Assembly: GCF_018977255.1 (NCBI RefSeq)
Contig: NW_024704755.1
Coordinates: 5,022,001 to 5,086,000 of the forward strand
Reading direction: 5' to 3'
Source of the DNA: Callorhinchus milii
Lineage: Eukaryota
DNA: 64,000 nucleotides
Positions 3,495-55,500 of this stretch are shown here, piece by piece (position 1 is the first letter of the stretch; each line of letters starts with the position of its first letter). Under the pieces are notes generated by a model. That model was given only the letters and a program-made list of their open reading frames with translations, had not been told where the DNA came from and searched no databases. Made by a program: the position numbers and the translations under genes.

Positions 3495-6400
3495 ACTTTC
3501 CATTGTTCTTCTTTAATATGTCACAGACGTCAATGGATACGTTTCCAAATAGTTCATTTTTCAAGGTATGGCTGTTCCAGACTTTCAGCTCCAATCGGCT
3601 CTGTGGTGTTACATTCCTAGGGTGAAAAATATGCGATTACTGTAGACAGAAGAATTCAGCACAGACATGGAAACATCCAAACACCTCTGAATTTCCATTG
3701 GAGTTTTTTACAGTCTATTTACATCACCCGAGATTGAATTTTATACCCTGTTTACATAGCCAAGCTGGTCCCAGAGTAAATCCATCATAGAGAGAAAGTC
3801 AACACAATCGTGGCAGTAAAAGCAATGCTAAAAAAACACTCTCTGCTTTCATACTGCCACAGAAACACAACACGAGTTGGGTAAGTAAAGGGGATAAAAA
3901 AAAGCGTTTCCCCTGAGAAGAGACGTGTAAGCAATTTTTTTACCCCAGGAGTCATTCATGTTAGGTCTTTTGAACTTCTTGGTAGTTAGCTACAAGTGGA
4001 AGTCTGGGAGCAAGTCATCGAACACAATTAGGGCGGTGGCGTATGCTGGGCCGTGGCGTACACTGGGGGGTGGCGTACACTGGGGGGGTGGTGTGCAGAA
4101 GAAATTGGGAATCAAATAGAGTGGAAAAAAGTTCATACAACTTCTAAAGCATTGAAAAGTCGACTTATTGGTTTGATTGAAATGCAATGCTACATGTGGC
4201 CCAGAATACACGACAACAAGGGACATGCTTTTAACAAGATACAAAGAGGCTGGTCTGGCAGCTATGCCACTTTGGTTAATCAAAAGATCCAGGAGAAACA
4301 GGGTACATTATAGTTAAATAACTGAAGTAAAAGCTGGATTGACTGTGTAAATGGGATGAAGAAACCATGAGGGACATGCAGAAACATGAATTTCAAGAAA
4401 TTAAGAGTGTCAGAAGCTCTTACAAGGTTAGTGTCTCATTCCACTGTGGATGAAGGTTTCCGTTTCGTTTTCCAGTTTTCTTAGTTTCACTTTGCAGTCC
4501 GTCCACTGTCACTTCAATGTAACAACTGATCCTCGTTCCTTTCTGGACTATAAGTTTGGCTTTTAAGACTAAGTGAATGAAAATACATAAAATGAACAAC
4601 AGAATTGTAAAATATTACAATTTTCTAACATAATGTATATTACAAATTAGAACAAGCAAGTATTTGGCAATAAATATATAGTCATTACACCCTATAGCAA
4701 TATCCTGTGAAATGCTTTGAAACGTTTCCTACCCCCAACTCGGGTGCAAACCCTTAAGTGTTCCGTGCCTTGGGACATCCGCCCAGCTCCACTGGCTCCC
4801 CATCCCTCAGAGGATCAAATTCAAGATCCTCATCCTCACTTTAATTTAATTTTGTTGTTGTTGTTGAAAGGCGCTATAGAAATGCAATTTGTTGTTGTGG
4901 TTTCAATGAAGCAATAAGGTGCTACAGAACTACAAAATACATCTACAAATTCTTTCTAAGGGACTGTGTAAGATGTTATTCACATGACATGTTCCTGCAT
5001 TAACACACTGTGCACTATGAAGAGGCAGGACATGAGAGCTCCCATAGTGAGCTCCATTTTACTTGGCCCATAAAATGGAGGGCAAACACTTCCTTATAAG
5101 AAACAGGATGGGGTGAGAAATTGACAGATGATTCATCTTGTGGCACTCTTCTACATCTTGTAGATTGCCCGGAAAATAGGATATGAAATCATATGAAGGA
5201 TTATATTTTTCAGTAAAATTAGGTGTTCCTATTTCTTCTCCTTTGAGCCAGTTCACCATTACGTTGCTGCTCAGCTGAGATCATAGAGTAGTCTGGCCCA
5301 TTCCCTCCCTCTGTGAACTTCAATTTTACTCCAATCCACTGGCAGGAGATGCAGAGAATCAAGAGAATCTCAGGCTTTCCCTCTCAAAATGAAACACCCT
5401 GGTTCTGAAAGTCACTCCATCAAGGAGCCAAAGTATTAATGCAACTGAGGAAAATTAATTTTGGTGCAAGCTTAAACACAACATCTGTTTGTTAAGAATT
5501 AATTATTCATTCACTTGATGGAACACCGAAGCTGCATCACGGGGTTTGCTTCTTAACTGCTTTTCTACATTAGTCATTATAATCATGGAGTCCTGTAGCT
5601 CAGTGGTTAGAGCACTCGCTTTGCAAGCGAGAGACCTGAGTTCAATTCCAGGCAGAGGGCGAAACCTTGGGCAAGTTTCCTTACTCCACACACAGCCCTA
5701 ATAATAATCCCTCCAAAACCAAAAACAATAATAAATTGGTCTTTTTCAATCTACGACTGTTTGTGGGACATTGCTGTGCGCAATTGGCTGCCGCGTTCAC
5801 CCACAAATATATAGTCAATTCAGTTTACAGTGTGTTCAGCGCCTTGGGACGTCCTCCCGATGTGAAAAGCGCTATATCAAATGCAAGGATTATTATTATT
5901 ATAATCTAAATTCTCACTTATATTTTTTTACAAATATAACACACTTTTAATCATTCATTCGTATATACTGCACTTCCAGGCAATCTTGAAGACATATATA
6001 TTGTGGCTCACGCAGAAATAGAAACTACTTCCCTAAAGGGACGGAAAGTCAATCTTCAGTAAATAAATGTGACTTCTAGAGGCCAGTTTCCGAGTCCTAT
6101 CGGAAGACATGAGCAAGTCATCCACTTATCCTATCAAGTCACAAAGGCCAAATTTGAACAAAAAACATATGAAAAGGTACATTACATTTTTGTGCCAACA
6201 TTAGACAAACATGTTTAATAGGCTCAACATATGAGATCACTGTTCAAAAATATACTCTTGAGTAAAGGCCATTTAGGAACACCCCCACTGTCTGGAGTTT
6301 CAGAACTGCCAGCTGAATTAAGTGCCAAATCAAATAAACTACTATATAAGCAAAAAAAAACTAAGCGGAATGTGTCACTTTTTAAGATGGTTCTAATTAT

Positions 6401-23286: not shown

Positions 23287-26200
23287 CTATATCAAACCAA
23301 GCTTATGCATTGTCCTCCATCGATCTTTAATCATGACGTTAGTTCGGTCACAAAACGGATAACTTTTCAGGATCTTCCCCCAATTCCCTACTCCAAACTT
23401 TCGCACACCTCGTTTAATCCATTCGCTTTCTTCCACTGTCCACCTCTAGAAGATTAACAAAGAGTATTATTGTGGTGCCAGACCAACCAACACAAGTCAC
23501 AAAAGAAACAATGCTCTCTCATTAATCTGCTGTATGATATTCTTAAACATATGTGTTAGAATTATTTACCAGTAGAGCAAATGCACCTGATCACTTCAGA
23601 CTACCCAAAAATTGACAGCAAGGAAAATCTTAAATTTAAAACTATATATTTAATATCTGTTGAAGATTGACGCTTACTGTGTTGCTCGACATTTAGTAAG
23701 ATACAGTACAACTTTGTAGATAACCAGAATCACATTGCGATCAATAAATCAGCATGGGGGAGAGCAAGCTAAACACTGGCCGACTCCATTATGTGGGATA
23801 TTAGAACATTACATAAAAAATGCACGAATGTATAAAAATAGGTAATTTACCTGACGTCTGGATGAAATTGAAAAAGTACTCTCCGTTGGCGAGGTCCTTC
23901 CATGGCCTATTAAGCAATTAAGAGTAATTAACTCTTGCTCTAATAAATAATGCACATCAATTTACAAAAATTGTATCACCACATTTTAATAATTTCCCCA
24001 AAATTATATTTAATAGCCCCTTAGAAAACAGTTTGTTTATTTGTTGAGAATTCCTACAGTCAAATATGAAAATTGTATGTGTCGTTTTAAGACAAGCCCA
24101 GGCGCAAGATACTTAAAATCTAAATACAAAATACATTTTGTTGTTCCACCTACAGAGCACAATGGTCCAGAGTTAGCAGTTCCTACAGATCCATAGCCTG
24201 GATTAAAATCGTGATATTTTGAATCCATAGAAATTTAGACCAATTAGAAATATCCACAAAATAAAAATGCCATACAAACATCCAAATTCATTGCTAAATT
24301 ATTCTAAAAACTGAGATAAGAACTAGGGTAATAAAAGGCAAGGGATTATCTCTGCATCAACACATTTTAAAAAAATATGATCAACTCCACATTGAAGATT
24401 AGTGTTAATATTCTATATATTAGCAAAAAAGCAACAAATATGTAATTAACTTTATTATAGCAACTTAGAATTTAATAGAAATCGAGATCAATAAATTTGG
24501 TAGATAAAAATCTTTATTGAAGTGTTACTTGTGCTAATCTCAATTTAAAAGTGCTTCTATGCCAGTCAATACTCTTGAAAGCCTGGTGTTTACTCACTGG
24601 TGGCTTGAGGTATAGCAAACAGAAATTCCTCATCACTCCATTCCTCCTTGTTTTCAACCATTTGAAGCTCACGTAAATTAGATCTAAGGGTAGAATTAAA
24701 GATTATATAGCAATCATCACATCCAACATAGACAATGCATAGACAAATTAGTAAGCAGACAAATCAATAAGCTAATGAGGAGAAATTTCACCTGGGACTA
24801 AATTACTATTTATATAGCATTTTAGAGCATCCAGAATTTGGCAAATTAAATTAAATTCAGTCTTAATTTTGAAGGCACGTGACTGTAAAATTCTTTTTAA
24901 TAATGAGAGAAAACTGAATTCAATGTTAAGACTGAATTCAAATTTGCCAAATTCAGGATGCTCTTAGATGCTAATAGAACAAAGCTAGACCCAAGTGGAA
25001 TTGCAAAATCATTTGGTTAGAATTAACTTCAGATGATGTCATAAGGCGCTATACCAAATGCAAGGGCAATATTATTATTGTATTCATCAACAATTCAGTG
25101 TATTTCAATTGCTATGTAAATTATTGCATTTGTAAATGATCCAGTGATTTCTCCTAATTATAATGCAACATATGGTTCAATTTGCATTACAGTAGAACTT
25201 CAGTCAGAACATTATAATTATTTTCTCTCTGTCTGAAATACTTGCTTTTCAAAGGATTCCACTTGAATTTACTGAAACCTCACCTCTTGCCTTGAAGTGT
25301 TCCAGTTTCTTTGCTTAGCCTTTCAACAGGAGAGCTTGAATCATTTGATGACCCTGGGGAATAGACCTGGCAATGCTGGAAATGCCTCCTCCCACTCTGG
25401 ACTGGGATTTCGGGTGTTTTCAGTCCACTCCCACTCTGGACTGAGATTTCGGGTGTTTTCGGTCCACTCCCACTCTGGACTGAGATTTCGGAAGTCTCCA
25501 CCTCACTGTCGGGCTCTATAACAAACCGAGACACCCGTGTGCCATCTGTTTCTATCCTCTGCCTCTTTCGTCTTGGCACTTCTTTGTTTCCTTCAGGTAT
25601 TTTAAAATCAAGTTTATCTAGCTTTTCAAAGACTGTTGGTGTGCCCATTGATGAATTAAAAAGGATGTTGAATGCAGTGTGAAGAGCTGTACGACTGCAA
25701 ATCAGGCTTGGTTCAGCTTTCACCCTAAAAGATGGCACAAATTGTAACACAAATTACTTCAAAAATTACTACTTCATGATTTTTTTTTACTTCTGCAGAA
25801 TCAATAGGTACCATGCAAGAATAATAGCAATGCTGCTCAACAGTTAAGTCTCCATGTAATTAATGAAAAGCTAGACTTTAATATGAAATTAATGCTGCCA
25901 TTCATTTGTAACCAAAGCGGAACCAGGCTTAAAATATTTAGCATATTAGTTTCTGTAATCTATCAAACAAAATTAGATTTTTTCAACTGCTCAGTAGCAA
26001 CTTATGCTTTATTGTATTTAACAAATAAATTGTTTCCCTCATGCACTATTTGGGGAAATAACTACCTTAAAAGCTAAATTGTAACTATTTTGGAACCAAT
26101 TGATCTGTCAGTGACCAGCTTAATTTACATTTTTAATTTTTTTTAATAACATTTAGAATTAAATGCATATTTCTTCTTACTGACCCATTGTTCTTTGGGT

Positions 26201-29101
26201 AAAATGATAAACCAGTATCCTGGTATCAATCAATCTTTTTCAAATTTGGAAAAAAATACATTCAGTCTTAATAGTGTTTTTAGACTTTGCTTGAGCAGAA
26301 CAACAACTTGCACCTATATAGCATCCTCCACACAGGGTAGCGTCTCAAGAGTGTTTAAACAGCATAAGTAGTTGCCTACATAAGTCGCTACTTTTCAAAG
26401 TGGCTTGTTACTTTTGAGACACTGAAACATGCTACTATTTTCGTTTATTTTTTCTTTATATCAACAATTTTGAAACACTGCTTAAGTTGACATAACAAAA
26501 AAACCTCCAGTAACCTCTTAGAACAGATGCGACATTTATCCTCTGGATTCGATGAGCACTGATTTGATTTCTCTTCTTGCATCTTAGTCACTTCCAATGC
26601 AGAGTTTGAAATGGATTTTTTTGCAGTCTGAAGGCAAACACAGTGTACATGAATGTTTTAGCTCTCATTAAGGTAAGAGATGGCAGGATAAATTCCCTAC
26701 ACTGCACTCAATGCTGACTTGCATCACAGATTGCATGAATTTTACACTATGAAGTTTTAAAAGAAAAAATCAAAATACAATTAAGTCAGCAATAGCATAA
26801 ATGCAGTTAACATTTGGCAACTTCTCACAAAAATCATGCAATTCTAAGATGCAGCTATAAATAGCAACCAATTTTCCCCTTTGACTTCTTTCCTCAGAGG
26901 CAGCCACATTACCACAGAAAAGTTAAAATAAAAATGGTAAAATGCATGTCACAGGAAAGAGGGAACTTAAATCTATGAATGTGCACATTTAAAACAAGTT
27001 ACACTACTTTAGATGCTGAAATACATTATACCAGACCATCCAAACTGAATTTAAATACATACAAGAAGCAGAAAAGGTTCACGGTTGTCAATCAAACGGT
27101 CCACAAAAGCCATCATTTTAATTTTGAATTCACTGTACATATAGAAACGAAGATCAGGATGGGAGCAATTCCTCTCTCTAATAACAGCTGAAAGCAATTT
27201 CTAAGAAAACAAGAAAGGACAAAACATTTTAAGACTGCAGCATAATAACAAAAGTATAATTCAACTAATTATAACTGCACACTAACAGGAAAAATACATT
27301 GTATACAATACAGCGGAATCTCGGTGATCCACCATAATAAACAGACCTGGAAATTCACGTATGTTGACATTACACTGTACGTGCTGTGCTCCCATCCCTG
27401 GCTGACTCAATTCCCATATCCCTCATTCCCACATTCAAAACTTTCTAATCTGCAAAAACAGATATCTGGCCCAATTGAACACTAACACACCTGGTCATCA
27501 GCCTTTGTGATATGTGTTCGTAGGATCTTGGAAGCTTCTTCAAAGCAGCTCTTCTTAATATAACGAACCACAGCCTTCAGAAAGAGAATATGAAAATGTT
27601 ACTCAAAAGCTTGCTTTATTTGGGAACATTGAACAAGCAACCTGGATGACAATCCATCTGTTTAAAAGAATTCAGGGATTGCCAAAGAATGGTCACTCAG
27701 ATTTCTATTTGTGTGCAATGCAAGATAAAAAAATACGTATTGCTTTTCACAGATGGTTACTGAGGACAAACTACTGCTTACTCATTACGACAGTAGTTTG
27801 CATTAGCTTTACACCCAACTTCCGGTGTCAAAACCAATGACTAAACAAATTAAAAATGATTTAAAATCATTGAATTAACCTGTATTTGTATAGCTTCTCC
27901 GATCTTTTGGATCATTCCTTCATCCAATGAGAACTCATTCTTTATCCGGTCAAGAATTGTTAAAACAGATTCCAGTGATATGGTGTTTCTTTCTGTATAA
28001 AAGTAATGAAAGGTAGATTTGTAAATACACACTTACCACATAAAGGTATGTGCAAAAAGTCAATTATATGCTTATTTTGCTTACCAAATTTGGCTAGAAA
28101 CCATATTATAAGAAGCTTTTTTGCAATCTCCTCTGTGTCATTGTATGGCCCTTTCAAAACAGCTGTAAATAAAAATAGAATACGAATATAAAATAAAAAT
28201 ATCAGTAGGTCTGAATAAAAGCCTGGTCCACGATCAACTTTTTAAACAACTGTTGCCATTTACACTGAAAACTATAATAGTAATGTTACCCGTTTTATTT
28301 ACTAAACTTTTTCCCCATTTCAAGCATTCAGTATCTGCATCCAGGTCAGATACCCCAAACTATCAGTAAAGCTCCTTGTACAGTATTTGCCAACTGAACC
28401 ACCATGAGACTTATTTTACCAGACTACTACCTTCCATGTTATAATGTTAAAACAGTCCAGCTCTATTTCGCTGTGCGAGGAGTTCCTTCCACAAGTCCCG
28501 TGCACTCCGATGCCCACTGACAAAACCAATCCCAACGAGCTTCTATTTAAAATATTTGTAGGTAAAATGATATAAGGTTCTGTACTCAAAAGCGTGCGGG
28601 GGTGGGGTTAAGACCGCACCAGAGGAAGAAAATTTCGTGTGTAAACACTACCGACATTGACTCAAGATAATAATAATAATAATAATCCTTGCATTTCATA
28701 TAGCACCTCCTCGCGGTCTTCAAGGTGCCTCAAAGCGCTTCACAGAATATACTGTAAAGTGCATAAGACATCCAGTAACGTCGTGCGAGCGTCGAGGCCA
28801 ACTTCACTTCGAGTTTGAGCGCCTAAACTCCGGACTCGCCTGTTATAACGTCCAGGATGGCGCAGAACTGCTCGTCTTGGCCGCTCCTGAACGCTTCGAG
28901 GGCGCAGTGCAAGTTATACTCCAGGATCCAATGGTTCACGGTTTGCTGGGGACCCGGCGCGTCTGCTCCGTCCCCGGCTTTCCTCTTCCTCGGATTCCGC
29001 CCCGGTGGCGATGCGGGTGGCGCCAAAGACCCGTTCAGGTCCCGCCGCTCGGCGTCCGTGTCGCTATCGGAGCTGTAGGCCCCGTCCCGCGATGCTGCCA
29101 T
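23287..29101 (-). CDS. TERF2: Telomeric repeat-binding factor 2, about 509 aa; exons 29101-28840, 28162-28085, 27992-27880, 27574-27491, 27200-27063, 26627-26515, 25724-25284, 24683-24598, 23906-23851, 23445-23287
   Basis: TRFH domain ([15 protein letters not shown]; SLESVL; [18 protein letters not shown]; REPFLL), RAP1-binding-like [17 protein letters not shown]2-binding-like [10 protein letters not shown], acidic [10 protein letters not shown], and telobox Myb [45 protein letters not shown]. Ten exons sum to 1530 nt in frame; lies between TMED6 and CYB5B. Confidence 0.95.
24784..25002. mobile_element. MITE-like inverted repeat (about 85-90 bp arms, about 45 bp spacer) in TERF2 intron 7
   Basis: Left arm 24784-24873 (..AGAGCATCCAGAATTTGGCAAATT..AATTCAGTCTTAA) is the reverse complement of right arm 24919-25002 (TTAAGACTGAATT..AATTTGCCAAATTCAGGATGCTCT). 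Confidence 0.7.
25389..25491 (-). repeat. 39-bp coding tandem repeat (about 2.6 copies) in TERF2 exon 7
   Basis: Units start at 25389, 25428 and 25467; encodes the 13-aa unit [12 protein letters not shown](L/P). Confidence 0.95.
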
Positions 29102-29239: not shown

Positions 29240-29420
29240 CGCAATCCCTGCACTTAATACAGCGCTTTGTCACATCTTCAAGGCGTCTCAAAGCGCTTCA
29301 CAGAACATACTGTGAAGTGGATTGACTATGGGGAAAACAGGGCAGCCAATTGCGCACAGCAGCGTCCAACAAAGGGTTGTGGATTGAAGCAACCAATTTA
29401 TTATTTTTGTAACGGATTAT
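29240..29420 (-). mobile_element. SINE 3' half; further tail fragments at about 12005-12095 (+), 28668-28762 (-), 35050-35200 (-), 41990-42055 (+)
   Basis: CAAAGCGCTTCACAGAAC...GGCAGCCAATTGCGCACAGCA matches the family core and tail. Confidence 0.75.
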
Positions 29421-30226: not shown

Positions 30227-31940
30227 ACAACAACAACAACAAGATTCCATTTATAAAGCGCCTTTCACGTCAGGAGGACGTCGCAAGGCGCTGCACAGTT
30301 GGGTCATGACCCGAGCAGGGGGGAAATGGTCAGGGTGAGGGGAGGGGAGGGAGCGAGGAGGGGGGAAATGGTCAGGGTGAGGGGAGGGATGGGAGGGAGC
30401 GAGAAGGGGGAAGAGAGTCGAGAGGGGAGCTGAAGGCTCGGTCAAAGAGAAAGGTTTTGAGACCGGCCTTGAAGGAGGAGAGGGAGGAAGCAAGGCGAAG
30501 GCACTGGGGGATAGAGTTCCAGAGCCTCGGGGCTGAAGGCCCGACCACCAATGGTAGGGCGATTGGGGCGGGGGACGTGGAGCAGACCGGAGCCGGAGGA
30601 ACGGAGGGTACGGGCAGGTAGGTAGGGGGATAGTAGGTTGGAGAGGTAGGAGGGAGCAAGGCCGTGAATGGCCTTGTAGGTGAGGATGAGGATCTTGAAA
30701 TCAATCCTCTGGGGGATGGGGAGCCAGTGGAGGCGAGCGAGGGTGGGAGTGATGTGGTCGCGGTGTCTGGTGCGGGACAGTACACGAGCTGCAGAGTTCT
30801 GAATGACCTGCAGCTTGTGGAGGGAGGTGGCGGGAAGGCCGCGAGGAGAGAGTTCCCATAGTCCAGCCTTGAGGTGACAAAGGCGTGAACCAGGGTTTCA
30901 GCCGCGTGAGGGGTGAGGTAATGGCGTAGTCTGGCGATGTTCCGGAGGTGATGGAAGGCAGTGCCAGTTGTGGTGCGGATGTGAGGGAGAAAGGACAGCT
31001 CAGGGTCGAACAAAACGCCGAGGTTCCTGACTGGCTTTGAGAGGTGGAGAGTGCAGCCTTGGATGCTGATGGTGTCGGCGCCTGAGGTGCGGAGGCGCTG
31101 ACGCGAACCAATCAGGAGGGCCTCGGTTTTTCGCACGTTGAGCTGAAGAAAGTTGTCTCTCGTCCAGGACTCGATGTCGGACAGGCAGCTGTCAGGACAT
31201 CGGTGGTCGTGGAGTTGAGAGTAGAGGAGGAAAGGTAGAGTTGGGTGTCATCCGCATACATGTGGAAGTTAACTCCATGTCTGCGGATGAAGTCACCAAG
31301 GGGGAGCATATAGAGGGTGAAGAGGAGGGGACCGAGGACAGAGCCCTGAGGGACTCCACATGAGACAGTACGGGGGGTGGAGGAGAAGCTATTTGTCGAG
31401 ACAAAGTGAAGACGGTGAGAAAGGTACGACCTAAACAACAACAACAACAAGATTCCATTTATAAAGCGCCTTTCACGTCAGGAGGACGTCCCAAGGCGCT
31501 GCACAGTTGGGTCATGACCCGAGCAGGGGGGAAATGGTCAGGGTGAGGGGAGGGGAGGGAGCGAGGAGGGGGGAAATGGTCAGGGTGAGGGGAGGGATGG
31601 GAGGGAGCGAGAAGGGGGAAGAGAGTCGAGAGGGGAGCTGAAGGCTCGGTCAAAGAGAAAGGTTTTGAGACCGGCCTTGAAGGAGGAAAGGGAGGAAGCA
31701 AGGCGAAGGCACTGGGGGATAGAGTTCCAGAGCCAAACCACTCAAGGACAGTGCCTTGAAGGTTGAGGTGGGAGGACAAGCGGTGGAGTAGGATAGCGTG
31801 GTCGACCGTATCGAATGCTGCCGATAGGTCGAGGAGGACGAGGAGGCAGAGGGAGCCCTGGTCACAGATGGTCAGGATATCATTGGTGACCTTGACCAGG
31901 GCAGTTTCTGTGCTACGGGCAGCACGGAAACCTGACTGAA
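30227..31940 (-). mobile_element. 5'-truncated young L2-clade LINE (RT and C-terminal ORF2, frameshifted) with a nested 3' fragment at 31437-31734
   Basis: RT motifs [86 protein letters not shown]; (TTG)n tail at 30227-30242. Confidence 0.95.
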
Positions 31941-32199
31941 CAGTTGAAACATCTTCCCTATGTCTACCCTATCAAAACCGCACAAAGCAGGGGGGTTTTT
32001 CATGCCCAGTACAAGAAAAATACACCGAATTGGGTGTCATCCGACGTGAAAGGCGCGATACAAATGCAATTTGTTTTTGTTGAACCCGTCCAATCTGGTA
32101 CTAATGGACACAAGCTTTCCCTCACTCGCCCCTTCACCGAAGGGAAAAAAATGTCATGTTTTTGCTGCTGTGATTCTCTAACAATACAAGAGCAACGGG

Positions 32200-32595
32200 C
32201 AACAAGAAGATTACATTTGTATCGCGCCTTTCACGTCGAGAGGATGTCCAAAGGCGCTGGACAGGGCACAGCGTTTCAGACCCGAGCTGGGGTCAGGGGG
32301 GGAGGAGGGAGGGGACGGGAAGGTGGGGGGGTGACCGACGGTGGGGGGTGACCGAAGGTGGGGGGTGACGATGGGGGGGGTGACCGACGGTGGGGGGTGA
32401 CCGACGGTGGGGGGGTGACTGACGGTGGGGGGTGACCGCCCGCATGCTCGAAGAGGAGGGTCTTGAGGCGGGACTTGAAGGAGGCTAAGGAGTGGGGGGG
32501 GGGGGGCGAGGGGGCCGAGGCGAGGCGATTGGGGAGAAGGAATTCCAGAGGTCGGGGGCAGAGCGGCTGAAGGCTCTCCCGCCAACGGTGGGGCG
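32200..32595 (-). mobile_element. L2 3' fragment carrying an internal G-rich minisatellite
   Basis: L2 tail (CATTTGTATCGCGCCTTTCACGTC) and ORF2 end (TVGGRAFSRSAP, WNS, SFKSRLKTLLF). Confidence 0.85.
32322..32440. repeat. About 17-bp minisatellite GGTGGGGGGTGACCGAC x about 7
   Basis: Tandem units read directly. Confidence 0.9.
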
Positions 32596-32759
32596 GAGGC
32601 CATCCGCCCCCCCCCACCCGCCGAGCCTGTTTACGCCCGTCCGTCAGATCCCGGCGGGTCTTCTTACTTGTTCGAGAGCGCTCTGAGACGTCCGAAACGC
32701 ACGACGGAGGCGCTGCGGCGAAGGCGAACGCGAGGACCGTCGGCGCGTAACGCAAACAC

Positions 32760-33067
32760 CCCGACCCGTCCGTCGTACGATCAGAGCTGCGTCGCATCAC
32801 GTGACGCTCCGCCCGCCCCGCCCCCCCCCAGCGTGTGACGTATCGGACCTGAGCCGCCTCGGGATCCTATTGGCGGGCGGGGGGGCCGGGCTCCGCGCGC
32901 GGTGACCGCAGGAGACGCCGGTGAGTCACGTGAGGCGCGACCGTTACTGGCTACCTGCGCGAGCTGCTTCAATCCCCCCCTCACGCGCACCCACGGCAGA
33001 CGGTGACCGCCCCCCGCTTCGTTGGCGTCGCTCGCTCGCCCGCCCGCCCGCCGGCACAGCTTCAGCA
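32760..33067 (+). promoter_or_regulatory. CpG-island promoter / 5'UTR of CYB5B
   Basis: TCACGTGA at 32797-32804 and 32926-32933, TGAGTCA at 32922-32928, inverted CCAAT (ATTGG) near 32869, GC boxes. Confidence 0.75.
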
Positions 33068-36000
33068 ATGGGCGAAGACGACAAGGTAATCTGCAACGAT
33101 GACTCGCCGGTCAAATACTTAACGCTGGAAGACGTGAAGTGTCACAATTCCTGCACGTCCACATGGCTCGTGATTCACGACAAAGTCTACGATGTCACCA
33201 AATTTCTGGACGAGGTGAGTTGACGTTTATCTCCAACCCCTCCCAACCCCACCCCCCCCACCCACCCCCAGCAACTAGGCCTCGGTCTCGGGTCCCGGTG
33301 CGGGTGGCCCTGACGATTGGCACCACCGGGGGAGAAGGAGGGGCCTCGCTCTGGCCGTTTGACTCCCGACCTGCGGTAACCTCACTCAACACGGGACAAA
33401 AAAGGGAGGTGTGCGGGTTCACGGGGGTCGGACCCAAATGGACGCGCGCGGAATCGCAACAGAAACAAAAGCCCCCCCCCTCCCCGCCCCCGCCCCGCAT
33501 CACCCCTTTCGTGTGCGGCACTGCTTCTCTCGTCAGGACCCCCCCCCACCCCACCACCGTGGGAGTCCCGTAGCTCAGTGGTTAGAGCACTCGCTTTGCC
33601 AGCGAGAGACCCGAGTTCAATCCCCGGCAGGTCAGGGCCAAACCCTGGGCAAGTTTCCTTACTCCACAACACAGAGCCCCTACTAACAATCCCTCCAAAA
33701 CCCCCCCGAAAAAACACAATCATAAATCGGTCATTTTCAATCCACGACTGTCTGCGGCGACGCCGCTGTGCGCAATCGGCCGCCGCGTTCGCCCACAAAT
33801 ATACAGTCAATTCACTTTACAGTGTGTGTTCTGTGAAGCGCTTTGGGACGTCCTCCCGCCGTGAAAAAGCGCCATATCAAATGCGAGGATTATTATTATT
33901 GTTATTATGTCGCCTTTTGCGACCTGCTCCCCTTTGTAAAGTTGGCGGTTGAAGCACGATGGCACTTGTTTTCCTTGCCTTGTTTTAGCAATGCCCTCAT
34001 TTTATTCGATCGCCAACGGCAAAATGTTGGTTTGTAATCGATCATATGAGCGAAATGCAAATGTTGTCGTAAGAGGTTAGAACAGCAGCAGCAACAGCTT
34101 GCCACTTTTATAGCGCCCGCCACTCAAGAGCGCTTAACAGTTGGCAGAGCGTGACTCGGGGGGGGTGGTCTTTCAGTGGAAGGTTTTCAGGCAGGACTTG
34201 AAAAAAATTTGGGCCCCATAGTACGCTGGTATTTTTCCAGGGACTGTTATTTTTCTGTGACTGTTCTCCCACACAAATAGAATTGACATACAATGTCAAG
34301 TTTTAAGCAGCTTCTGTGAAGCCAATGATTTCTGAGAATGTTCTATGTGAAGTATTCTGACGTGCCTTTATGATGGGAGGAAATTTAGTCCTAAATTGTT
34401 TAGTCCTAATCCTAATCTTTTGTGTGGCGTGGTATGCATTGGCAAATAAAATGAAGTGACCTGATGTAATGTAATAAACCTATATGAAGATATATTTACA
34501 CACAGTCACTGTCTTTCATGAGAACAGAGAGAAAGACATTAACTACTCACCACCTGGAGCATCCTGGAGGCTTTCACGAGCTCCACCTTAGAAAGATAAG
34601 AAAAGCTCTGTTCAACTAAATATTTAAAAATTGTACACTTTTAATTGTCTATTTTTGGTGGTTGATTTGTTAAAATGGAGGGTATGAAATTCTTAGCTTT
34701 CACGGTCTTTGAAATCACATATTTCAATTCTCTTTATCAGGAACATCAGATATAGAAAGGACATCTGCTCTCCCGTTTTTGAAAGAAATGAAAAATATGT
34801 TTTTTTTGGCCAGAACAAATGTTTTTAAGTATTGAAGTAGGAACCCAGTATAAGTTCTGTCCTTGGCTGGTTGTACATGAAACTGCTTATATCTGTGTTA
34901 ATGCTGAGTCTAACCTTCAACTAAATTTTCAGTCGAAGGTTACATCATGTCCAAGTACATCAAAAACCATGACATTGAATTGGCAATAATAAGTAAGCAG
35001 TTTTATATCATCTTGTGCTTTCATTTATTGTGATCTATCTGAAGTAATGCAATAATAATCCTTGCATTTGATATAGCTCCTTTCATGTTGGGATGACGTC
35101 TCAAAGTGTTCCACAGGATTTACAGTAAAGTATAGTTACTGTAGTTGAAAGCAGCAGTCAATTTGTGCACTGCAATGTCCCACAAACAGCTTTGAAAATG
35201 AATTTTATCCGGGGGGGTTGTTGGCTAGGAAAGTAGGAGAAAATCCCTTCCCTTTTCAAATAGTGTCATGGTATCTATGAGACCGGCCTTGAAGGAGGCA
35301 AGGGAGGAAGCGAGGCAAAGGGACCGTGGGGTGGAGTTCCAGAGTGTGGGGGTAGAGAGGCTGAAAGCCCGGCCACCAATGGTCGGGCGGGAGACATGGA
35401 GCAGACTGGAGCCTGCTGAACGGAGGGAGCGGGCAGGTTGGTAGGGAGTCAGCAGGTCAGAGATGGCCTTGAAAGTGAGGACGAGGATCTTGAATTCGAT
35501 CCTCTGGAGGATGGGGAGCCAGTGGAGTCGGGCGAGGGTGGGGGTGATGGGGTCACGGAGCCTGGTACGTGAGAGTACACGAGCTGCAGAGTTTTGGATG
35601 ATCTGCACCTTGTGAAGGGAAGAGTTGGGAAGGCCGATGAGGAGGGAGTTCCCGTAGTCGAGCCTTGGTGTGACGAATGCGTGGGTGAGGGTTTCGGCAG
35701 CCTGAGGTGTGAGGCAGTGGCAGAGTCTGACAATGTTGCGGAGGTGGTGGTAGGCAGTGCCGGTCATGGCGCGGAGGTGGGAGAGAAAGGACAGTTCAGG
35801 GTCGAACAAGATACGCAGGTTCCTGACTGGCTTAGTGAGGTTGAGTTTAACATCTCATCTGAAGGTTGGCAACTCTGACAACTGAGTACTCAACAACCTC
35901 CTGACTTGTAGACGAGAGTGAAACTTGAAGAATAAACAGTGAGAATATAAATTAGCAGTATTAGTTTGTAGGACAGGTAACGGAGAGTTGTTTGGGGTTA

Positions 36001-39000
36001 CTTGTGAATAGATTGCTATAACCATCAGCAAGTGTGAAGTGGCAATTAAGTGGAAAATCTTGGGGGTGTATAAGAAGTAATATTGAATTCATAAAAGATA
36101 CTGGTCTGTTCTTGCACCTGGATTACTACTTTCAATTCTGGTCACTATTACAACTATATTCAAAGCCTTCAGATTGCCAGAAGCAAAAACAGGAGATAAT
36201 TATTTAGTAAATGACAAAGAATTTAATTTTGAACCAACCAGGTAGATTACAGTTCTGTGTATTCCTCTGTAAATCTTTTGAGTTGTACAATCTTGTCCGA
36301 TTATTTATTTGGTTCCATTCTGTAAGGTTCTATCATGTAGCATGTGTGCATTGTGTGTTCCACTGCTGTAATAAACAAAAATTCACATTACATACACACT
36401 TCAATTTACTTTTTTCCCCTTTTTCATTTTGTAGCATCCGGGTGGCGAAGAAGTACTCTTTGAGCAAGCAGGAGGTGACGCTACTGAAAGTTTTGAGGAT
36501 GTGGGCCATTCATCTGATGCCAGAGAGATGCTGACACAGTATTGTATAGCAGAACTTGATCCGGTCAGTACAGAGCACGATCCATCTTTGCATTACGGAT
36601 TTTCTAGCTTTCCTGTTCATGTTTACCAAACCTTTTTGCATAAATAATCACATCATTAATTAGTGTTGACAGAATGACTTCTAGTTAGCGCCATTGAAGA
36701 CCATGTGCCTTTGATGTCCTTTACTGCGGTTGTAACTGATGAAATGTTAGGACAAAATGCAAGCAAAAGCAACTTCGAAGCCCACCTGAACACCTATCTT
36801 TTTGACTGTGCTTTTAGTCATCTTGCATGTTAAAACATTCCATGGCACAATTTTACAAGATAAGGGAGCTTTTTTCCAATGTCCTGGACAACAATATCAC
36901 AGATAACATTAGTCATTTTACTTCAGGGTCCTGTGCAAATTGCCTGCCGCATTTGCCTACAAATAAGCGGGGTGGGGAGCGTACAGAGGAGTCCTTGATT
37001 CTACCATCTGTGCTGCGCTTTGCCAGCCAGCAAACACCCAGTACTTTCAGAGTACACTGACAAAGTGGAGCATGTAAAAGAAAGTGTCAGAGATCAGAAA
37101 AAAAAATTAGCTGAGACATGGTTGTAAGTTATATTACAACATGGGGATCAAAAGGAGTATTTTTTTAAAAAGTCTTTCTCCAGTAAAATACTGTAACTAC
37201 AATTTACAATGGGCAGAATGCCCTTCTTCTGTGCCGTGAACATCTATGGTTCTGTACTAAAGTGCTGAAAGAATCTATCGTGCTTTGTGCATTTGGCTTG
37301 ATTATTTAAGGTCTTTATGCCTTTTTTTTTCTTTAACAGGCTGATCGAAAAAAAGAAAATTCCAAGGTAAGGTAATAAATGGCAAGCGAGAACATCTAGT
37401 GAGAATCATGTGCTTATCAGCTCTTTAATAATAATAATAATCCTTGGATTTGATATAGCACTTTTCACGTCTTCTCGACGTCTCAAAGCGCTTCACAGAA
37501 TAGAATGTAAAGTGAATCGAGCGTATATTTGTGGGCGAAACGCGGCAGCCAATTGCGCACAGCAGTGTCCCACAAACAGTCGTGGATTGAAGTGACCAAT
37601 TTATTATTTTTTGTTTTGGAGGGATTATTATTAGGCGTGTGGAGTCAATTTAAAAGTAAACTTGCCCAAAGTTTTGCCCTGCCTGGAATTGAACCCAGGT
37701 GTCTCGCTTGCAAGGCAAGTGCTCTAACCACTGAGCTACAGGACTCCATGATCAAACAAAATCCAGATCAAACAAAATTACAACAACCACAACAATTTTT
37801 TTATGCATTCATGCCAGTGGCAATGCAGTGAAAACACTTTTTATTGATGTTTCTAATTTGGCAGAAAACAACCAATAACAGTTTTTTTGTCTCAGATCCC
37901 ACTGGAAAATAAAAAAGATTCAACATTCATTCGCTTATTGCAAATAATTTAGATTGTCAATTTAAAAGAAGCATTCTATTTGAAAGTTATATAGTTCTGT
38001 CAATCTGAGACTGAGGCAGTCCCTTTGTGTACATATTCTGGCCTCAGCAATCTAGATCTGGAAGAAATTTATCTGACAAAGAACATAATTTTAGCGAGGA
38101 GAGATAACACACAAGTCCCTACACGACTCTCCCTCTCCATAAAGGCTGATTGCAACAACTACCCCAGCTAAATGAGCATAGATGTTTATGCAAATATGCT
38201 GTCTTTTGGCAACCTTTATTGTTCAGTGTGCCTCCTGCATTCTTGTACAAGTTGTTAATTTATGCACTATAAGATATAAAATGTGGTCATTAAGTTTTAA
38301 TTTAATCTTGGTTTTCTCGTGTATGCTTGAATGTCTCTATCTGGATTTATGATAGTGTTAGAACCGTTCCACTGAATGCTGTTAGTTTGACATGTTCTTG
38401 GTTCTCAATCAGTTGCGTGAAGCATTTTGAGATGTCCTCCCAAAATAAAATACATTCTTATAAAAAGGCAAGAATAAGAACAGCAATTTATATTTATAAG
38501 TTACAAGACCCAAGTATTAATATGTTTTTTGTTTCTTGTTCTCCTACAGGATGTTTTAATCACCACATCATCAAGCCATTCCAGGTATAGTACATTTCAA
38601 ACTTTATCTGTAGACTTGCATGAGTTTAAGGCGTATGACAAGTCCTGTGGAGTCCTGTAGCTTACTGGTTAGAGCACTCGCTTTGCAAGCGAGAGACCTG
38701 AGTTCAATTCCAGGCAGAGGGCGAAACCTTGGGCAAGTTTTCTTACTCCACACACAGCCTAATAATAATCCTTCCAAAAACAATAATAAATTGGTCATTT
38801 TCAATCTACGACTGTTTGTGGGACATTGCTGTGCACAATTGGCTGCTGTGTTTGCCCACAAATATACAGTCAATTCACTTTACAGTGTGTTCTGTAAAGC
38901 GCTTTGGGACGTCCTCCCGATGTGAAAAGCGCTATATCAAATGCAAGGATTATTATTATTATTAAAGGTCAATAACATACCAGAACATTTGTTTTATTTT

Positions 39001-39098
39001 CCAGTTGGTGGACAAATTGGCTGATCCCTGCCTTAGCAGCTGCTGTTGTTGGCCTCATGTATCGCTTCTACTTAGTGGAGACCAAAACCTCATCCTGA
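33068..39098 (+). CDS. CYB5B: Cytochrome b5 type B, 143 aa; exons 33068-33214, 36435-36563, 37340-37366, 38550-38584, 39005-39098
   Basis: [63 protein letters not shown] with both heme His ligands; C-terminal anchor [30 protein letters not shown]. 432 nt in frame with GT-AG sites. Position between TERF2 and NFAT5 identifies the B paralog. Confidence 0.93.
33562..33908 (+). mobile_element. tRNA-derived SINE, GC-shifted copy, CYB5B intron 1
   Basis: Same family as 5587-5903 with many A/T->G/C differences. Confidence 0.92.
35278..35835 (-). mobile_element. L2 LINE ORF2 C-terminal fragment, CYB5B intron 1
   Basis: [51 protein letters not shown]; homologous to 30460-31040. Confidence 0.92.
37426..37747 (-). 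mobile_element. tRNA-derived SINE, CYB5B intron 3
   Basis: Reverse complement of the family: ends ...CACTGAGCTACAGGACTCC; (AAT)n tail at the left. Confidence 0.92.
38649..38963 (+). mobile_element. tRNA-derived SINE, CYB5B intron 4
   Basis: GGAGTCCTGTAGC head through (ATT)n tail. Confidence 0.92.
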
Positions 39099-39546
39099 AG
39101 CATTTAGTTTGGGGGGAGGGTCTTGATGGGGTGTGCCTACTCGTTCATATTTCGTTGTTCCTCTTTGTCTTCAAATAATGTTTATATCAAATATTGGAAG
39201 CGCAATACTATACAATTATGTGCTTAAATTTGACTGAACACCTGCTGGGACTTCATTGTGATCATTGTTTTCTATTCCTTACACAAAATAGTATAGTAAT
39301 TTGTCAGTTTTACAGTATAAATCTTCAGCAATGAGAAGTATATAATGTTTAGTGCTTTTATTTGGAACAGATTCCCCCCCCTCCCCATTTCTGACTTCCA
39401 ACAAAAAGAGAAACACATCAAAGTTCACCTTTGAATAAACAGCTATTTTACAATACAGTATCAACAAACTGTTTGTAACACTGGTGCTGCATGTTTTCTG
39501 TTTTGAATCTCTGGCAAACACTTGGTTCTTGGCTACAATACAATTT

Positions 39547-39577
<31 letters not shown>

Positions 39578-41262: not shown

Positions 41263-41281
41263 AATAAATCCTGCTAATAAA
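41263..41281 (+). terminator. Tandem AATAAA poly(A) signals of CYB5B
   Basis: AATAAA at 41263 and 41276 followed by a GT/T-rich element (TTTTGTGTTGTG). Confidence 0.6.
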
Positions 41282-42435: not shown

Positions 42436-42595
42436 GTTGTACCTTTACACTGTACAGTGTAATCCTGGGAAGCGCTCTGGGACGTCTCGGGAGATGCGGT
42501 CGGGCGCTCTTTTATCAAATGCAAGGACTGTTGTTGTTGGATTTGGCTCTGCCTTTGGTTTCCTGTTTACCTTTCATTCTTTCTCCTCCCTCCCT

Positions 42596-42682
42596 CCTTC
42601 CTTCCTTTGCATCCATCCATCCATCCTTCCTTCCTTTGCATCCATCCATCCATCCTTCCTTCCTTTGCATCCATCCATCCAT
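42596..42682. repeat. 29-bp unit x3 (CCTTCCTTCCTTTGCATCCATCCATCCAT)
   Basis: Exact period 29 (TTTGC at 42606, 42635, 42664). Confidence 0.95.
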
Positions 42683-52500: not shown

Positions 52501-55500
52501 TTGGCTTACAAAGCAGTCACTACACTTGAGAGTAAAATATGTATGAAGCGTTATGAGACATTTCGATGTAATGAGAAAAATGCACATTTTTTTAATGTTA
52601 ACGACTCTTTCAACAGTACCCCTGTATAGAAAGTAAATGTGAATTTTAATCCCAGCCTTTTCCTAAAAGAAAAGTAACAACATGAGAATTATGGTAACCA
52701 TACAGCACAAATACCTGGCCCACTAGGACTATCCTAACCTGTTGGGCTAAAATAGAAACATAAATTAGAAATAAATCTTTATTTACATCGTTTCAATGAT
52801 CCTGAATCTGAGCCATAAATGGCATAGGATCTGTTCTCTTTTTTTTGCTGTCTGTGAACATTTGTAGGTAATATGTTTACAACTTTTCTTGCAGCATTTT
52901 ATGTACTTAAGTCCTTAGTTATTGTTTGTGGTAGGGGCCAGGGGTTGAGATTGTGTAAGAGACAGTTGGTTGTTTTTTAAAACAATATTTTTTCAGGTTT
53001 AGCAATCATCTAGCAAATGGATTTTGTCAGTAGTCAACATGGAGTATGAGTTCACATTGTGTCCTTTTCTACGTCTTTTCTACGTCTACTGTGTTATTTT
53101 TTCTATTGATGTTTGTAAACATGAGTATTGTTTGATAATTTATATGTTTATGTTAGTGGTACCAATGTAAGCAAACTATTTGTGCTTTTCTGTTTTAAAA
53201 CCTTGATTCCAGGATTAAATGAAAAGGGATGTTTTTGCCACATGAAGGAGAATGCATGTTTGGTTTTGATTGCTGGAGGTGAAGCAACTGATTTATACTT
53301 CCTGATTTGAATTCCTCTTGCATGGGTTGAGGAGAACCAGTCATTGTTTAATGTTATCAAAAAGGCTGTTATCAAAAAAGCTGATCTTATACATCAGTGG
53401 TATGATTCTTAATGAATCCACCAACACATGGTGGTCTTAGCAAGCAACTAACTTTCAATATAAATTACTTGAATATAATAATAATAATAATCCTTGCATT
53501 TGATATAGCGCTTTTCACGTCGGGAGGACGTCCCAAAGCGCTTCACAGAGCACACTGTAAAGTGAATTGACTGTATATTTGTGGGCGAACGCGGCAGCCA
53601 ATTGCGCACAACAATGTCCCACAAACAGTCATAGATTGAAAATGACCAATTTATTATTGTTTTTGGTTTTGGAGGGATTAGTATTAGGCTCTGTGTGGAG
53701 TCAGGAAACTTGCCCAAGTTTCGCCCTCTGCCTGGAATTGAACTCACGTCTCTCACTTGCAAAGCGAGTGCTCTAACCACTGAGCTACAGGACTCCACAC
53801 ATCATTTCCCATGATTTGTAGTGCCAAGGACCATTGTGCCTCACACCAATGGAGCAGAGAAAACAAATATGGTTAGATAATACCAAACTTTCGGATTTAG
53901 AATTGTGGAGATTGTAAGAGAAACAGATGAATGAGGCGGATAAGGAGTTAACCACCTTGAGATCCTGGGAAAGAATTAGTGAATCAGAAAGCATGCAATG
54001 AGATTGATTACAATGAGTACAATTACAGCACGAGGAAGGGAGGGAGAAATATTGTGTGGAGCTATTTGGAGTTTGAGAGAAATGAGGGGAATGTTTAGTT
54101 GTTTACTGGTACAATCTTCAAGAAACTGGATTGCATTATATATGGGTTGGATAATCCCACTCATCATTTGAGATGGATGATCTAGATGTAGAAAATCTTG
54201 TGTTGAGGAAAAGGAATGAAAACTGAAAGGGAAAAAAATCCCATTTGTGTTCTCTAAATAGCTTGGTAGAACTTGCCATATACGTGAAGCATTTTCAGTG
54301 TTGCTGCATAGTTTTGTTTGGGGCTTCATAGCCTTGTATTACTTTGCCTGGTAGTTTGATTTGTATATTTGCTGGGTGAGCGCTAGGGTAGAATCTGAAC
54401 TATGTGCAATGGATAAAAAAATGTTTGTTTTTCTTTGAAGCTAAAACCAGGCAACTTGGATTCAGCTAAACCCACCAGCTATTTAACAAATATGTTGAAA
54501 GCCATTCTCACAAATACACAATCAGTTTGGTACTGCTGCTCAAAACAGTGAAATATTCATTTAAGTTACTTTGCGTCTCTGATTAATGATTTACAATCTT
54601 TCCACAGTTTTCAATATCAATTATTCAACCAATTATACCCTATATAACTTTGTATATACATATAATACTGTATCTTGCATAAGAATAGGTTGACTTTTTA
54701 TAGAACTAATAGTTGATGTTACCTTATTGTGAATGTTTTCAAGATCTGATTATTTTGTGTGGTGGGTAGGAGAATTGCATGCTTTTCAGTGTATAATTCT
54801 TGGCACTAGAACCAATTGTAATCTATGTCAGCATCAAGCGTTGCATAGTAAATATAGACTGGATTAGAATGAGGTGACTCTCACATTGCACACTTCTAAC
54901 AACGCACCTTATCCCTAGATTCAGGGTGACTTTTCCATTCCACTCATGGATGAGTGACCATTAAGAGCTGGATTGAGAGCTTCTCTCATTTAAAACTTAA
55001 GCACATTTCAGAAAGAGTTTTCACAATCAAAGTAGCCTGCATTCAGACATTTAGATGAAAGAACAATGTGCCAATCCACTATACTACTGTTGCATCTACA
55101 GTTGGGTTAAATTGCTTTTGAATTGCCAGATGCAGAATAAACAACTGTATGTTGAATTTTATCGTTAGCTTTGTTGAGCAAATTCTTGAGACTTGAGTGT
55201 CCCATGTTTAGTGGCTAAACAGGAAGAACTATCTTTTTGTCTGATTACAGTAATGTGATAATATATTGAATTACTTAGCAGCAGGAATATTTTACTTCCC
55301 GACTCAATTAATGGCATTTTTCATTCATCACATTTTGAGGGATGTAGTGTTTCATGGAATTACAAAGACTGAAACAGGCCATTTGACTCAACCAGTTTGT
55401 GCCGGAGTTTATCCTGCATGACTTCCACCTCTGCTAATCCCCCCTCCTGTTCTCTGTCCCATACCTCTCTCTTCCCTTCTCCGTCGTGCATGCAACTTTT

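What the first reader, a model, noticed from the sequence alone, without database searches (positions are those of the whole stretch)
33562..33908. SINE copy inside the CYB5B CpG island is rewritten almost only A/T->G/C
Seen: compared with the four sister copies (5587, 37426, 38649, 53476), this copy has roughly 20 substitutions by hand count, and essentially all go weak to strong: CCTGTAG->CCCGTAG, TGCAAG->TGCCAG, AATTCCAGG->AATCCCCGG, CTACG->CCACG, TGTTTGTG->TGTCTGCG, ACATTG->ACGCCG, AATTGGCTG->AATCGGCCG, GCTATAT->GCCATAT, TGCAAGG->TGCGAGG. Many are non-CpG or A->C, so protection from CpG decay cannot explain them. Established: GC-biased gene conversion acts at recombination hotspots, which sit at CpG-island promoters when PRDM9 does not direct them. 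Inference: a strong, long-lived promoter hotspot in this lineage, with SINE copies acting as neutral reporters.
Basis: partly seen in the sequence, partly recalled or inferred. Interest (0 to 1): 0.75.

Follow-up and report, generated by a model that had tools for sequence, protein, structure and literature searches.

The report
One-strand GC rewriting of promoter SINE
A copy of a very common short repeat lying just inside a cytochrome b5 gene's CpG island differs from its relatives only by gains of G or C, nearly all of them a C on one strand; this is likely the known footprint of recombination-linked GC-biased gene conversion at a promoter, though that process alone is not expected to favour one strand.

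Summary
Observation confirmed. Against its four sisters the copy has 23 substitutions: 22 A/T to G/C, none the other way, one G to C. Not all arose in place. Contigs from four public runs show the family's A/T letter at 80-99.5% of laid depth at 9 of the 22 sites. Four sites are mixed and nine could not be scored; some of these match an older subfamily. The whole haplotype does not look like a dispersed subfamily. Age and CpG protection fail even on the 9 sites. Other island repeats lean the same way, significant under one island rule (p=0.0006) but not the other (p=0.12). Best reading: promoter GC-biased gene conversion, known from dog and stickleback; recombination was not measured. Neither published mutation asymmetry I read explains six A-to-C with no T-to-G. 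A strand-polar form of conversion would, but its mirror image is weak here. The scan noted the GC shift before at another island in this genome (e1-7812429).

The parts
33562..33908 (+). Full-length tRNA-Ala-headed SINE with an (ATT)n tail; the rewritten copy (GC 0.525 and 24 CpG, against 0.42-0.45 and 8-13 in sisters)
33564..33635 (+). tRNA-like head, still called tRNA-Ala(TGC) by ARAGORN. T-arm sites 33612, 33622 and 33625 are mixed among family contigs and may be inherited from an older subfamily
33600..33873 (+). Span of the nine best-supported in-place changes, all to C: 33600, 33721, 33859 (A>C) and 33728, 33752, 33755, 33777, 33781, 33873 (T>C)
   Evidence: family letter at 80-99.5% of laid depth in 4 of 4 runs
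33701..33708 (+). C-run expansion inside the SINE, absent from the four sisters; further inserted C letters at about 33678-33680 and 33758
32001..34000 (.). CpG island around the cytochrome b5 promoter. GC skew flips from G-rich to C-rich at about 32600: 9 G runs of 6 or more left of it; 8 C runs and 1 G run right of it
33068..33214 (+). Cytochrome b5 coding exon 1. The label CYB5B rests on recalled synteny with TERF2; the best PDB hits are generic cytochrome b5
36435..36563 (+). Cytochrome b5 exon 2, which places the SINE in intron 1 on the sense strand
28829..29101 (-). Probable first coding exon of the divergent TERF2 gene (name from recalled likeness; no Pfam or homologue hit); it has its own CpG island
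23290..23442 (-). TERF2-type Myb exon
   Evidence: best hits TRF2, E 5e-22
5587..5900 (+). Young sister copy, off island: 1 W>S, 3 S>W
38649..38964 (+). Young sister copy, off island: 0 W>S, 9 S>W
53475..53796 (-). Young sister copy, off island: 3 W>S, 3 S>W
37426..37747 (-). Sister of a different or older subfamily: 8 W>S, 11 S>W; shares C at two focal sites
42443..42535 (+). Second rewritten SINE tail at the left edge of a third island: 15 W>S, 1 S>W, leaning to G (10 to G, 5 to C)
29240..29345 (-). Old SINE fragment in the TERF2 island: 10 W>S, 5 S>W, no strand lean
28678..28768 (-). Old SINE tail in the TERF2 island: 7 W>S, 4 S>W, no strand lean

Best explanation
After inserting into intron 1 of a cytochrome b5 gene, this SINE copy gained at least nine and up to 22 changes from A/T to G/C and shows none the other way, most likely because meiotic breaks at the CpG-island promoter are repaired with a bias for G/C alleles (GC-biased gene conversion). 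Shown: the counts, the family letters, the lack of a matching dispersed haplotype, and a normal GC-neutral change rate. Inferred: an unmethylated germline island, a recombination hotspot at this promoter, and fixation bias rather than mutation. Also inferred: the lean to C on the + strand comes from strand-unequal mutation input (transcription or single-stranded DNA beside breaks), which conversion then filters for G/C. Part of the apparent rewrite is probably inherited from an early form of the subfamily.
For: (1) 22 W>S against 0 S>W; sisters 4:15. (2) At 9 of the 22 sites the family A/T letter makes up 80-99.5% of laid depth in 4 of 4 runs, although laying on this copy favours look-alikes. 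None of the 32 listed rows shows a family-majority G/C where this copy has A/T, apart from an indel-edge row at 33712. (3) No older in-window fragment carries the focal letter at 33728, 33752, 33755, 33764, 33777, 33781, 33859, 33873 or 33885. (4) W>S rate ratio to young sisters is 6.6 (95% CI 1.8-29) on 9 sites and 16 (5.5-64) on 22; the GC-neutral ratio is 0.6 (0.01-5.3). An age-only model predicts 13 non-CpG S>W changes and 0 are seen (P=2e-6). Raised W>S with lowered S>W is the published gBGC signature (PMC2927911; PMC4350167). (5) Six other island fragments give 46:20 against 88:106 for 20 off-island ones (p=0.0006; non-CpG 39:9 against 78:57, p=0.005). (6) The T>C over A>G direction matches teleost introns on the sense strand (PMC2927911) and the right flank of human meiotic breaks (PMC7615360). 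(7) Elephant-shark PRDM9 is reported as partial and slow-evolving (PMC5519329), if the species label holds.
Against: (1) No recombination map, allele frequencies or orthologous copy were seen. (2) 13 of 22 sites are mixed (33612, 33622, 33625, 33764: 53-73% A/T) or unlisted (33569, 33645, 33683, 33687, 33715, 33743, 33762, 33763, 33885); loose ends there show another subfamily with C at some of them. (3) Under the island rule I set first (flank GC and CpG o/e), the other fragments gave 31:19 against 103:107 (p=0.12; non-CpG p=0.18; Spearman p=0.10). The significant version moves one fragment, 42443, into the island class; dropping it gives p=0.04 and 0.08. Two L2 tails and two L2 body pieces in islands show little or no bias. 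(4) Zero S>W alone is weak for non-CpG sites (2.0 expected, P=0.13). (5) Six A>C and no T>G run against the human break-flank pattern, which predicts T>G on that side. (6) gBGC and selection for G/C cannot be told apart by sequence comparison (PMC2927911).
Confidence: 0.55

Rival explanations
1. Strand-polar gBGC. Heteroduplex repair would keep a G on the resected single strand more often than a C. To the right of a stable promoter hotspot, T>C, A>C and G>C would then all win on the + strand, and to the left A>G, T>G and C>G, building a G-left, C-right skew flip.
For: It accounts for 21 of 23 changes making a C, including A>C 6 against T>G 0 and the one G>C. All 9 core changes go to C (p=0.004). 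Skew flips G to C at 32600 and, at a second island, at about 16190 (12 G runs left, 10 C runs right). The 42443 tail left of a third island leans to G (10 against 5). Right against left fragments: 25:7 against 14:22 (p=0.001). A strand-aware GC-restoring pathway is proposed in PMC6715734 (passages), and single-stranded DNA lies on the reverse strand right of a break (PMC7615360).
Against: Without the focal copy there is no contrast (right 5:5 against left 14:22, p=0.72; left alone p=0.24). The TERF2 island shows neither a strand lean nor a skew flip. Island centres were chosen after seeing the data. The left side of the CYB5B island is partly a minus-strand L2 piece that is G-rich by origin, and the left side of the 16-kb island is partly a tandem array. 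The passages read in PMC6715734 pool complementary changes, so they neither show nor exclude this.
Confidence: 0.15
2. Mutation bias alone. Transcription or a replication origin at the island raises T>C and A>C mutation on the sense strand and lowers loss of C and G, with no conversion bias.
For: A strong one-strand lean is a mark of mutation or repair, not of standard gBGC (PMC2927911). Islands are reported origins of bidirectional asymmetry (PMC2817419, abstract and introduction). C runs expanded by insertion, which allele conversion does not create.
Against: GC-neutral changes are not raised and S>W is zero, while W>S is up 6.6- to 16-fold. The published sense-strand pattern in fish also raises C>T, which is absent here. 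The human island asymmetry has the opposite sign.
Confidence: 0.13
3. Selection for G/C or CpG content, or for G-run structures, so that the inserted AT-rich repeat conforms to the promoter island.
For: CpG count rose from about 11 to 24. The copy sits 350 bp into intron 1. Fixation dynamics resemble gBGC (PMC2927911).
Against: Five of the 9 core changes make no CpG. Changes are spread over the whole element. Other old fragments at non-homologous island positions lean the same way.
Confidence: 0.07
4. The copy belongs to a GC-rich subfamily and merely kept its inherited letters in an unmethylated island.
For: Two subfamilies 5.1% apart, one closer to tRNA-Ala, are described for the elephant-shark SINE (PMC5499810). 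One search shows a subfamily with C at T-arm sites. 33743 and 33763 are shared with sister 37426.
Against: Nine sites carry the A/T letter in 80-99.5% of laid family depth. Depth that could carry the focal G at 33708 is 87-470, against family peaks of 3.4-4.7 million and single-copy flanks of 3.4-8.4 (summed contig depth is not a copy number, and a filter drops some records). The 3' half matches the young subfamily's diagnostic letters.
Confidence: 0.06
5. Assembly or base-calling artefact in GC-rich DNA.
For: No listed contig spans the SINE body. The runs hold only 0.70-0.79 of sampled words of 32600-35000.
Against: Contigs of 3 of 4 runs match 33879-33882 to 34100 without a difference, including the G at 33885 (3-6 letters from the contig end, so weak) and the tail G. 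I know no error mode that gives only W>S at 7% of sites (own knowledge).
Confidence: 0.03

Closest known systems
gBGC at CpG islands and transcription starts without PRDM9 direction: dog (PMC4350167, passages), dog and stickleback (PMC2927911, parts 1-4 of 7), many mammals (10.1101/2023.11.17.567540, abstract and Discussion)
   Same: W>S raised and S>W lowered inside a promoter island, also at non-CpG sites.
   Different: Read here from one SINE copy against its family, not from species alignments. Probably a cartilaginous fish. The change is almost all to C on one strand, whereas those studies treat gBGC as strand-symmetric.
CmiSINEs (SINE2-1_CM, SINE2B-1_CM) of Callorhinchus milii (PMC5499810, parts 1-2 of 6 and passages)
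   Same: tRNA-Ala head, 3' end shared with L2-type tails, very high copy number, two subfamilies of which one is more tRNA-like.
   Different: The consensus sequences (figure, supplement) could not be read, so identity rests on description. 'CpG' and 'GC content' occur 0 times in its main text.
Strand-asymmetric mutagenesis beside human meiotic breaks (PMC7615360, section 4 and figure legends)
   Same: Predicts T>C over A>G and G>C on the + strand right of a break, with off-centre peaks at 700-800 bp; the copy lies about 0.6-1.3 kb right of the promoter region.
   Different: Predicts T>G rather than A>C on that side; seen here A>C 6, T>G 0. It concerns new mutations at PRDM9 hotspots, not fixed differences.
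Transcription-linked asymmetry in teleost introns (PMC2927911)
   Same: T>C exceeds A>G on the sense strand, opposite to mammals and as seen here.
   Different: It also has C>T over G>A. The passages read give no size for the effect, so it is unknown whether it can reach 14:2.
Strand-aware GC-restoring repair at mouse non-crossovers (PMC6715734, passages)
   Same: Repair that protects a G or C on the recipient strand gives the bias.
   Different: The passages read do not separate G from C by side of the break, which the polar reading needs.

Membership tests
gBGC at a PRDM9-independent promoter hotspot | W>S substitutions raised over background, also outside CpG | tested here: met
   Ratio 6.6-16; non-CpG 13:0 against 4:6; 5 of the 9 core sites are non-CpG
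gBGC at a PRDM9-independent promoter hotspot | S>W substitutions lowered | tested here: inconclusive
   0 of 139 sites; 5.0 expected at the sister rate (P=0.007) but only 2.0 for non-CpG (P=0.13)
gBGC at a PRDM9-independent promoter hotspot | GC-neutral substitutions not raised to the same degree | tested here: met
   1 of 314 against 5 of 927, ratio 0.6 (CI 0.01-5.3)
gBGC at a PRDM9-independent promoter hotspot | Bias depends on lying in a CpG island | tested here: inconclusive
   p=0.12 under the first rule; p=0.0006 under the bin rule and 0.04 without fragment 42443; 26 fragments in one window
gBGC at a PRDM9-independent promoter hotspot | Strand symmetry of complementary W>S changes in the standard model | tested here: not met
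   20 to C against 2 to G, p=1.2e-4; core set 9:0, p=0.004. An extra asymmetric step is needed, so I file this as working like gBGC, not as a plain textbook case
gBGC at a PRDM9-independent promoter hotspot | W>S alleles shifted to high derived frequency; raised local recombination | not testable with these tools
   Four runs as contigs only; paralogues swamp the SINE at likeness 80; no genome held
gBGC at a PRDM9-independent promoter hotspot | PRDM9 absent or partial in the lineage | not testable with these tools
   No genome. Literature for C. milii: KRAB-SET, slow zinc fingers, not detected in RNA-seq. The species label comes from unchecked notes
CmiSINE (SINE2-1_CM / SINE2B-1_CM) | Head derived from alanine tRNA | tested here: met
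   ARAGORN calls tRNA-Ala(TGC) at 33564-33635 and in 2 of the 4 sisters
CmiSINE (SINE2-1_CM / SINE2B-1_CM) | 3' end shared with an L2-type LINE | tested here: met
   SINE tails match the ends of LINE-like fragments in the window at 77-87% over about 55 bp. The label L2 for those fragments is recalled, not from a call
CmiSINE (SINE2-1_CM / SINE2B-1_CM) | CORE domain in the body; identity to the Repbase consensus | not testable with these tools
   Consensus not readable; CORE likeness is only recalled
Dispersed GC-rich SINE subfamily | The diagnostic variants occur together in many dispersed copies | tested here: not met
   Family letter 80-99.5% at 9 sites; at most 87-470 depth with the focal G at 33708. 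Inconclusive for the other 13 sites

The most novel reading that the evidence does not exclude
GC-biased gene conversion at stable promoter hotspots is strand-polar: repair protects G on the resected strand, so DNA right of the hotspot is driven to C and DNA left of it to G. The G-left, C-right skew flips of these islands would then mark hotspot centres in raw sequence. The very many SINE copies of this genome would map past recombination in a cartilaginous fish and expose which mismatch the repair pathway favours.
Probability: 0.15. Interest if true: 0.8.

Novelty: new member of a known kind. Interest (0 to 1): 0.5.

Why it matters
The process is known, but none of the ten paper searches (open-licence library only, judged from listings and 14 fetched papers) turned up promoter gBGC in a cartilaginous fish or a strand-resolved form of it. 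If the pattern holds genome-wide, a single genome's SINE copies can report where recombination has concentrated in a lineage with few close relatives to align and a reportedly partial PRDM9. The one-strand lean makes an open question testable: which mismatch does the GC-restoring repair favour? A count of W>C against W>G on each side of island centres would answer it.

Tried and rejected
No whole genome was held, so no genome-wide per-copy count was possible. A homologue search with the probable TERF2 first exon found nothing among 147 candidates, so the lineage was not fixed by a call of mine. Nine of the 13 runs listed hold next to none of the words and were not used. Sites without a row were not counted as shared or private, because seeding favours look-alikes and a filter drops human-like contigs. 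The L2 body alignment (6 pieces) was uninformative (island pieces 4:10 and 13:8); the 58630 row was entered in the wrong orientation and is disregarded. Fragment 31451-31506 was left out of the tail sets as a 99% duplicate of 30238-30298. Six weak nhmmer hits (4661, 52514, 36893, 29261, 51029, 38403) were not used; four fragments came from BLAST instead (60365, 4863, 26298, 19170). The greater tRNA likeness of the focal T arm cannot polarise those sites by itself. No target-site duplication was evident by eye. A mirror strand lean across all island fragments was not found once the focal copy is removed. PMC5638367 and PMC5554587 (passages) had nothing bearing on the question. In PMC7403616 (passages) 'GC skew' means W>S bias, not strand skew. 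The passages shown from 10.1101/2021.06.08.447603 did not include the Callorhinchus mention. A paper on GC skew at vertebrate island promoters, recalled by DOI, is not held. Look-ups of earlier findings near this place, by words and by sequence gave nothing.

Full report
Setting. The element at 33562-33908 is a full-length SINE with a tRNA-Ala-like head and an (ATT)n tail. It lies on the sense strand in intron 1 of a cytochrome b5 gene (exon 1 at 33068-33214, exon 2 at 36435-36563). The block 32001-34000 has GC 0.53-0.71 and CpG o/e 0.80-1.13, against 0.49 for the window. A TERF2-type gene runs the other way (Myb exon). The label CYB5B rests on that recalled synteny. No genome was held. The scan's earlier notes call this genome the elephant shark; I did not verify that. 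It fits contig sets of about 0.9 billion letters and the published description of that species' main SINE (PMC5499810; PMC1845163, passages).

Observation. In the five-copy alignment the copy differs from the majority of its four sisters at 23 of 314 scored columns: T>C 14, A>C 6, A>G 2, G>C 1. That is 22 W>S and no S>W. Nine are transitions that create CpG; 13 are not. The three young sisters together show 4 W>S and 15 S>W (p=6e-8); without CpG transitions, 13:0 against 4:6 (p=0.002). The fourth sister, 37426, is more divergent (8:11) and looks like another subfamily.

How many changes arose in place? Older fragments in the window share the focal C at 33743 and 33763 and the G at 33762, so these are probably ancestral. 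None of them carries the focal letter at 33728, 33752, 33755, 33764, 33777, 33781, 33859, 33873 or 33885. I then laid contigs of 4 public DNA runs (4 samples, 1 study; 4 of the 13 listed) on 33400-34100 at 80% likeness; 37,126-42,947 contigs were laid per run. The family's A/T letter makes up 94-99.5% of laid depth at 33600, 33721, 33728, 33752, 33777, 33781 and 33859, 89-91% at 33755 and 80-82% at 33873. It is 53-73% at 33612, 33622, 33625 and 33764. Nine sites have no row, which can mean a shared letter, clipping, or the tool's silent filter, so I left them unscored. Loose ends show a further subfamily with C at T-arm sites and at 33763, in line with two published subfamilies, one closer to tRNA-Ala. 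The published consensus sequences could settle these 13 sites but sit in a figure and a supplement I could not read. Depth that can carry the focal G at 33708 is 87-470, against 3.4-4.7 million at the family peak. Summed contig depth is no copy number, but a dispersed subfamily with this haplotype should be laid best of all. So 9 changes are well supported as private and up to 22 are possible. Five of the 9 are non-CpG. The other 4 are CpG gains, not retentions, since the family and the older copies have T.

Age and protection do not explain it. Relative to the young sisters, W>S is raised 6.6-fold on the 9 sites (CI 1.8-29) or 16-fold on 22 (5.5-64). GC-neutral changes are not raised (1 of 314 against 5 of 927). 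An age-only model needs 13 non-CpG S>W and 11 GC-neutral changes; 0 and 1 are seen (P=2e-6 and 2e-4). A rough conversion strength from the rate ratio is B about 1.5-4, from very small numbers. Against this, zero non-CpG S>W is not significant alone (2.0 expected).

Do other island repeats agree? I scored 26 other SINE and LINE tails against leave-one-out majorities. With islands defined by flanking GC and CpG o/e, 5 island fragments gave 31:19 and 21 others 103:107 (p=0.12; non-CpG p=0.18). With 500-bp bins, applied afterwards, fragment 42443 (15:1) joins the island set: 46:20 against 88:106 (p=0.0006; non-CpG p=0.005). Dropping it gives p=0.04 and 0.08. L2 body pieces were uninformative. Subfamily structure blurs all of these old fragments.

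Twenty of the 22 W>S changes make a C on the + strand and 2 a G (p=1.2e-4); T>C 14 against A>G 2 (p=0.002); A>C 6 against T>G 0 (p=0.03); the 9 core sites all go to C (p=0.004). Off-island fragments are balanced (45 against 43). Insertions in the copy include several C letters. The island is G-rich left of about 32600 and C-rich right of it. A second island flips the same way at about 16190, the third only weakly, and the TERF2 island not at all. Standard gBGC has no strand preference (PMC2927911).

Mechanism. The best-supported reading is gBGC at a promoter hotspot: W>S up, S>W down and neutral changes flat is the signature described for dog islands (PMC4350167) and for dog and stickleback starts (PMC2927911). 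Such hotspots are reported even in mammals with PRDM9 (10.1101/2023.11.17.567540), so PRDM9 status shifts the odds but does not decide. For C. milii, PRDM9 is listed as KRAB-SET with slow zinc fingers and was not detected in RNA-seq (PMC5519329). Episodic gBGC at human starts is argued in PMC13712754 (passages). The strand lean needs one more step. Teleost introns have T>C over A>G on the sense strand, and mutation on single-stranded DNA right of human breaks reads as T>N and G>N on the + strand (PMC7615360). Both fit T>C; the break pattern predicts T>G, not A>C, and the fish passages I read do not cover transversions. A repair step that protects G on the resected strand would give T>C, A>C and G>C together, and the skew flip. 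This is my inference from the strand-aware GC-restoring model (PMC6715734), whose passages pool complementary changes. Its test in the window is weak: right against left fragments differ (25:7 against 14:22, p=0.001) only because of the focal copy (without it p=0.72), and centres were picked after seeing the data. Mutation alone and selection remain possible; only allele frequencies can separate them from conversion.

Verdict. The feature is real and largely as described, but smaller than it looks once subfamily history is allowed for. It is most likely a new lineage example of a known process, with an unexplained one-strand bias that is cheap to test genome-wide. Interest 0.5.

Noticed in passing
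15800-17000: A second CpG island with a clean skew flip at about 16190: 12 G runs of 6 or more on the left (partly a tandem array) and 10 C runs on the right. A probable minus-strand first exon lies near 16540-16600.
   Followed up: partly
42443-42535: An old SINE tail at the left edge of a third island is rewritten 15 W>S to 1 S>W, leaning to G; its (ATT)n tail now reads mostly (GTT)n.
   Followed up: yes
30227-31734: A 300-bp LINE 3' end occurs twice at 99.3% identity (30227-30526 and 31435-31734) between the TERF2 and cytochrome b5 promoters: a young duplication, conversion or assembly duplication.
   Followed up: no
33564-33635: The rewritten head is still called a tRNA-Ala gene. In an unmethylated island this copy could remain a Pol III template; not tested.
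   Followed up: no
32319-32506: An L2-like fragment left of the promoter carries a G-rich 17-bp tandem array and a 13-G run that other L2 pieces lack, the mirror of the C-run growth in the SINE.
   Followed up: partly
33899-33906 to 33562 (joints): Dozens of contigs per run join a SINE tail back to a SINE head, so head-to-tail SINE pairs exist elsewhere in this genome.
   Followed up: no
38649-38964: This sister, downstream of cytochrome b5 exon 2 on the sense strand, has C>T 7 against G>A 2, the direction reported for fish introns.
   Followed up: no
43673-43993: A 321-base assembly gap inside the third island, just behind a C run; a probable non-coding first exon ends near 43581.
   Followed up: no
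24784-25002: A self-complementary stretch of about 220 bp (71% identity to its own reverse complement), possibly an old DNA-transposon derivative.
   Followed up: no
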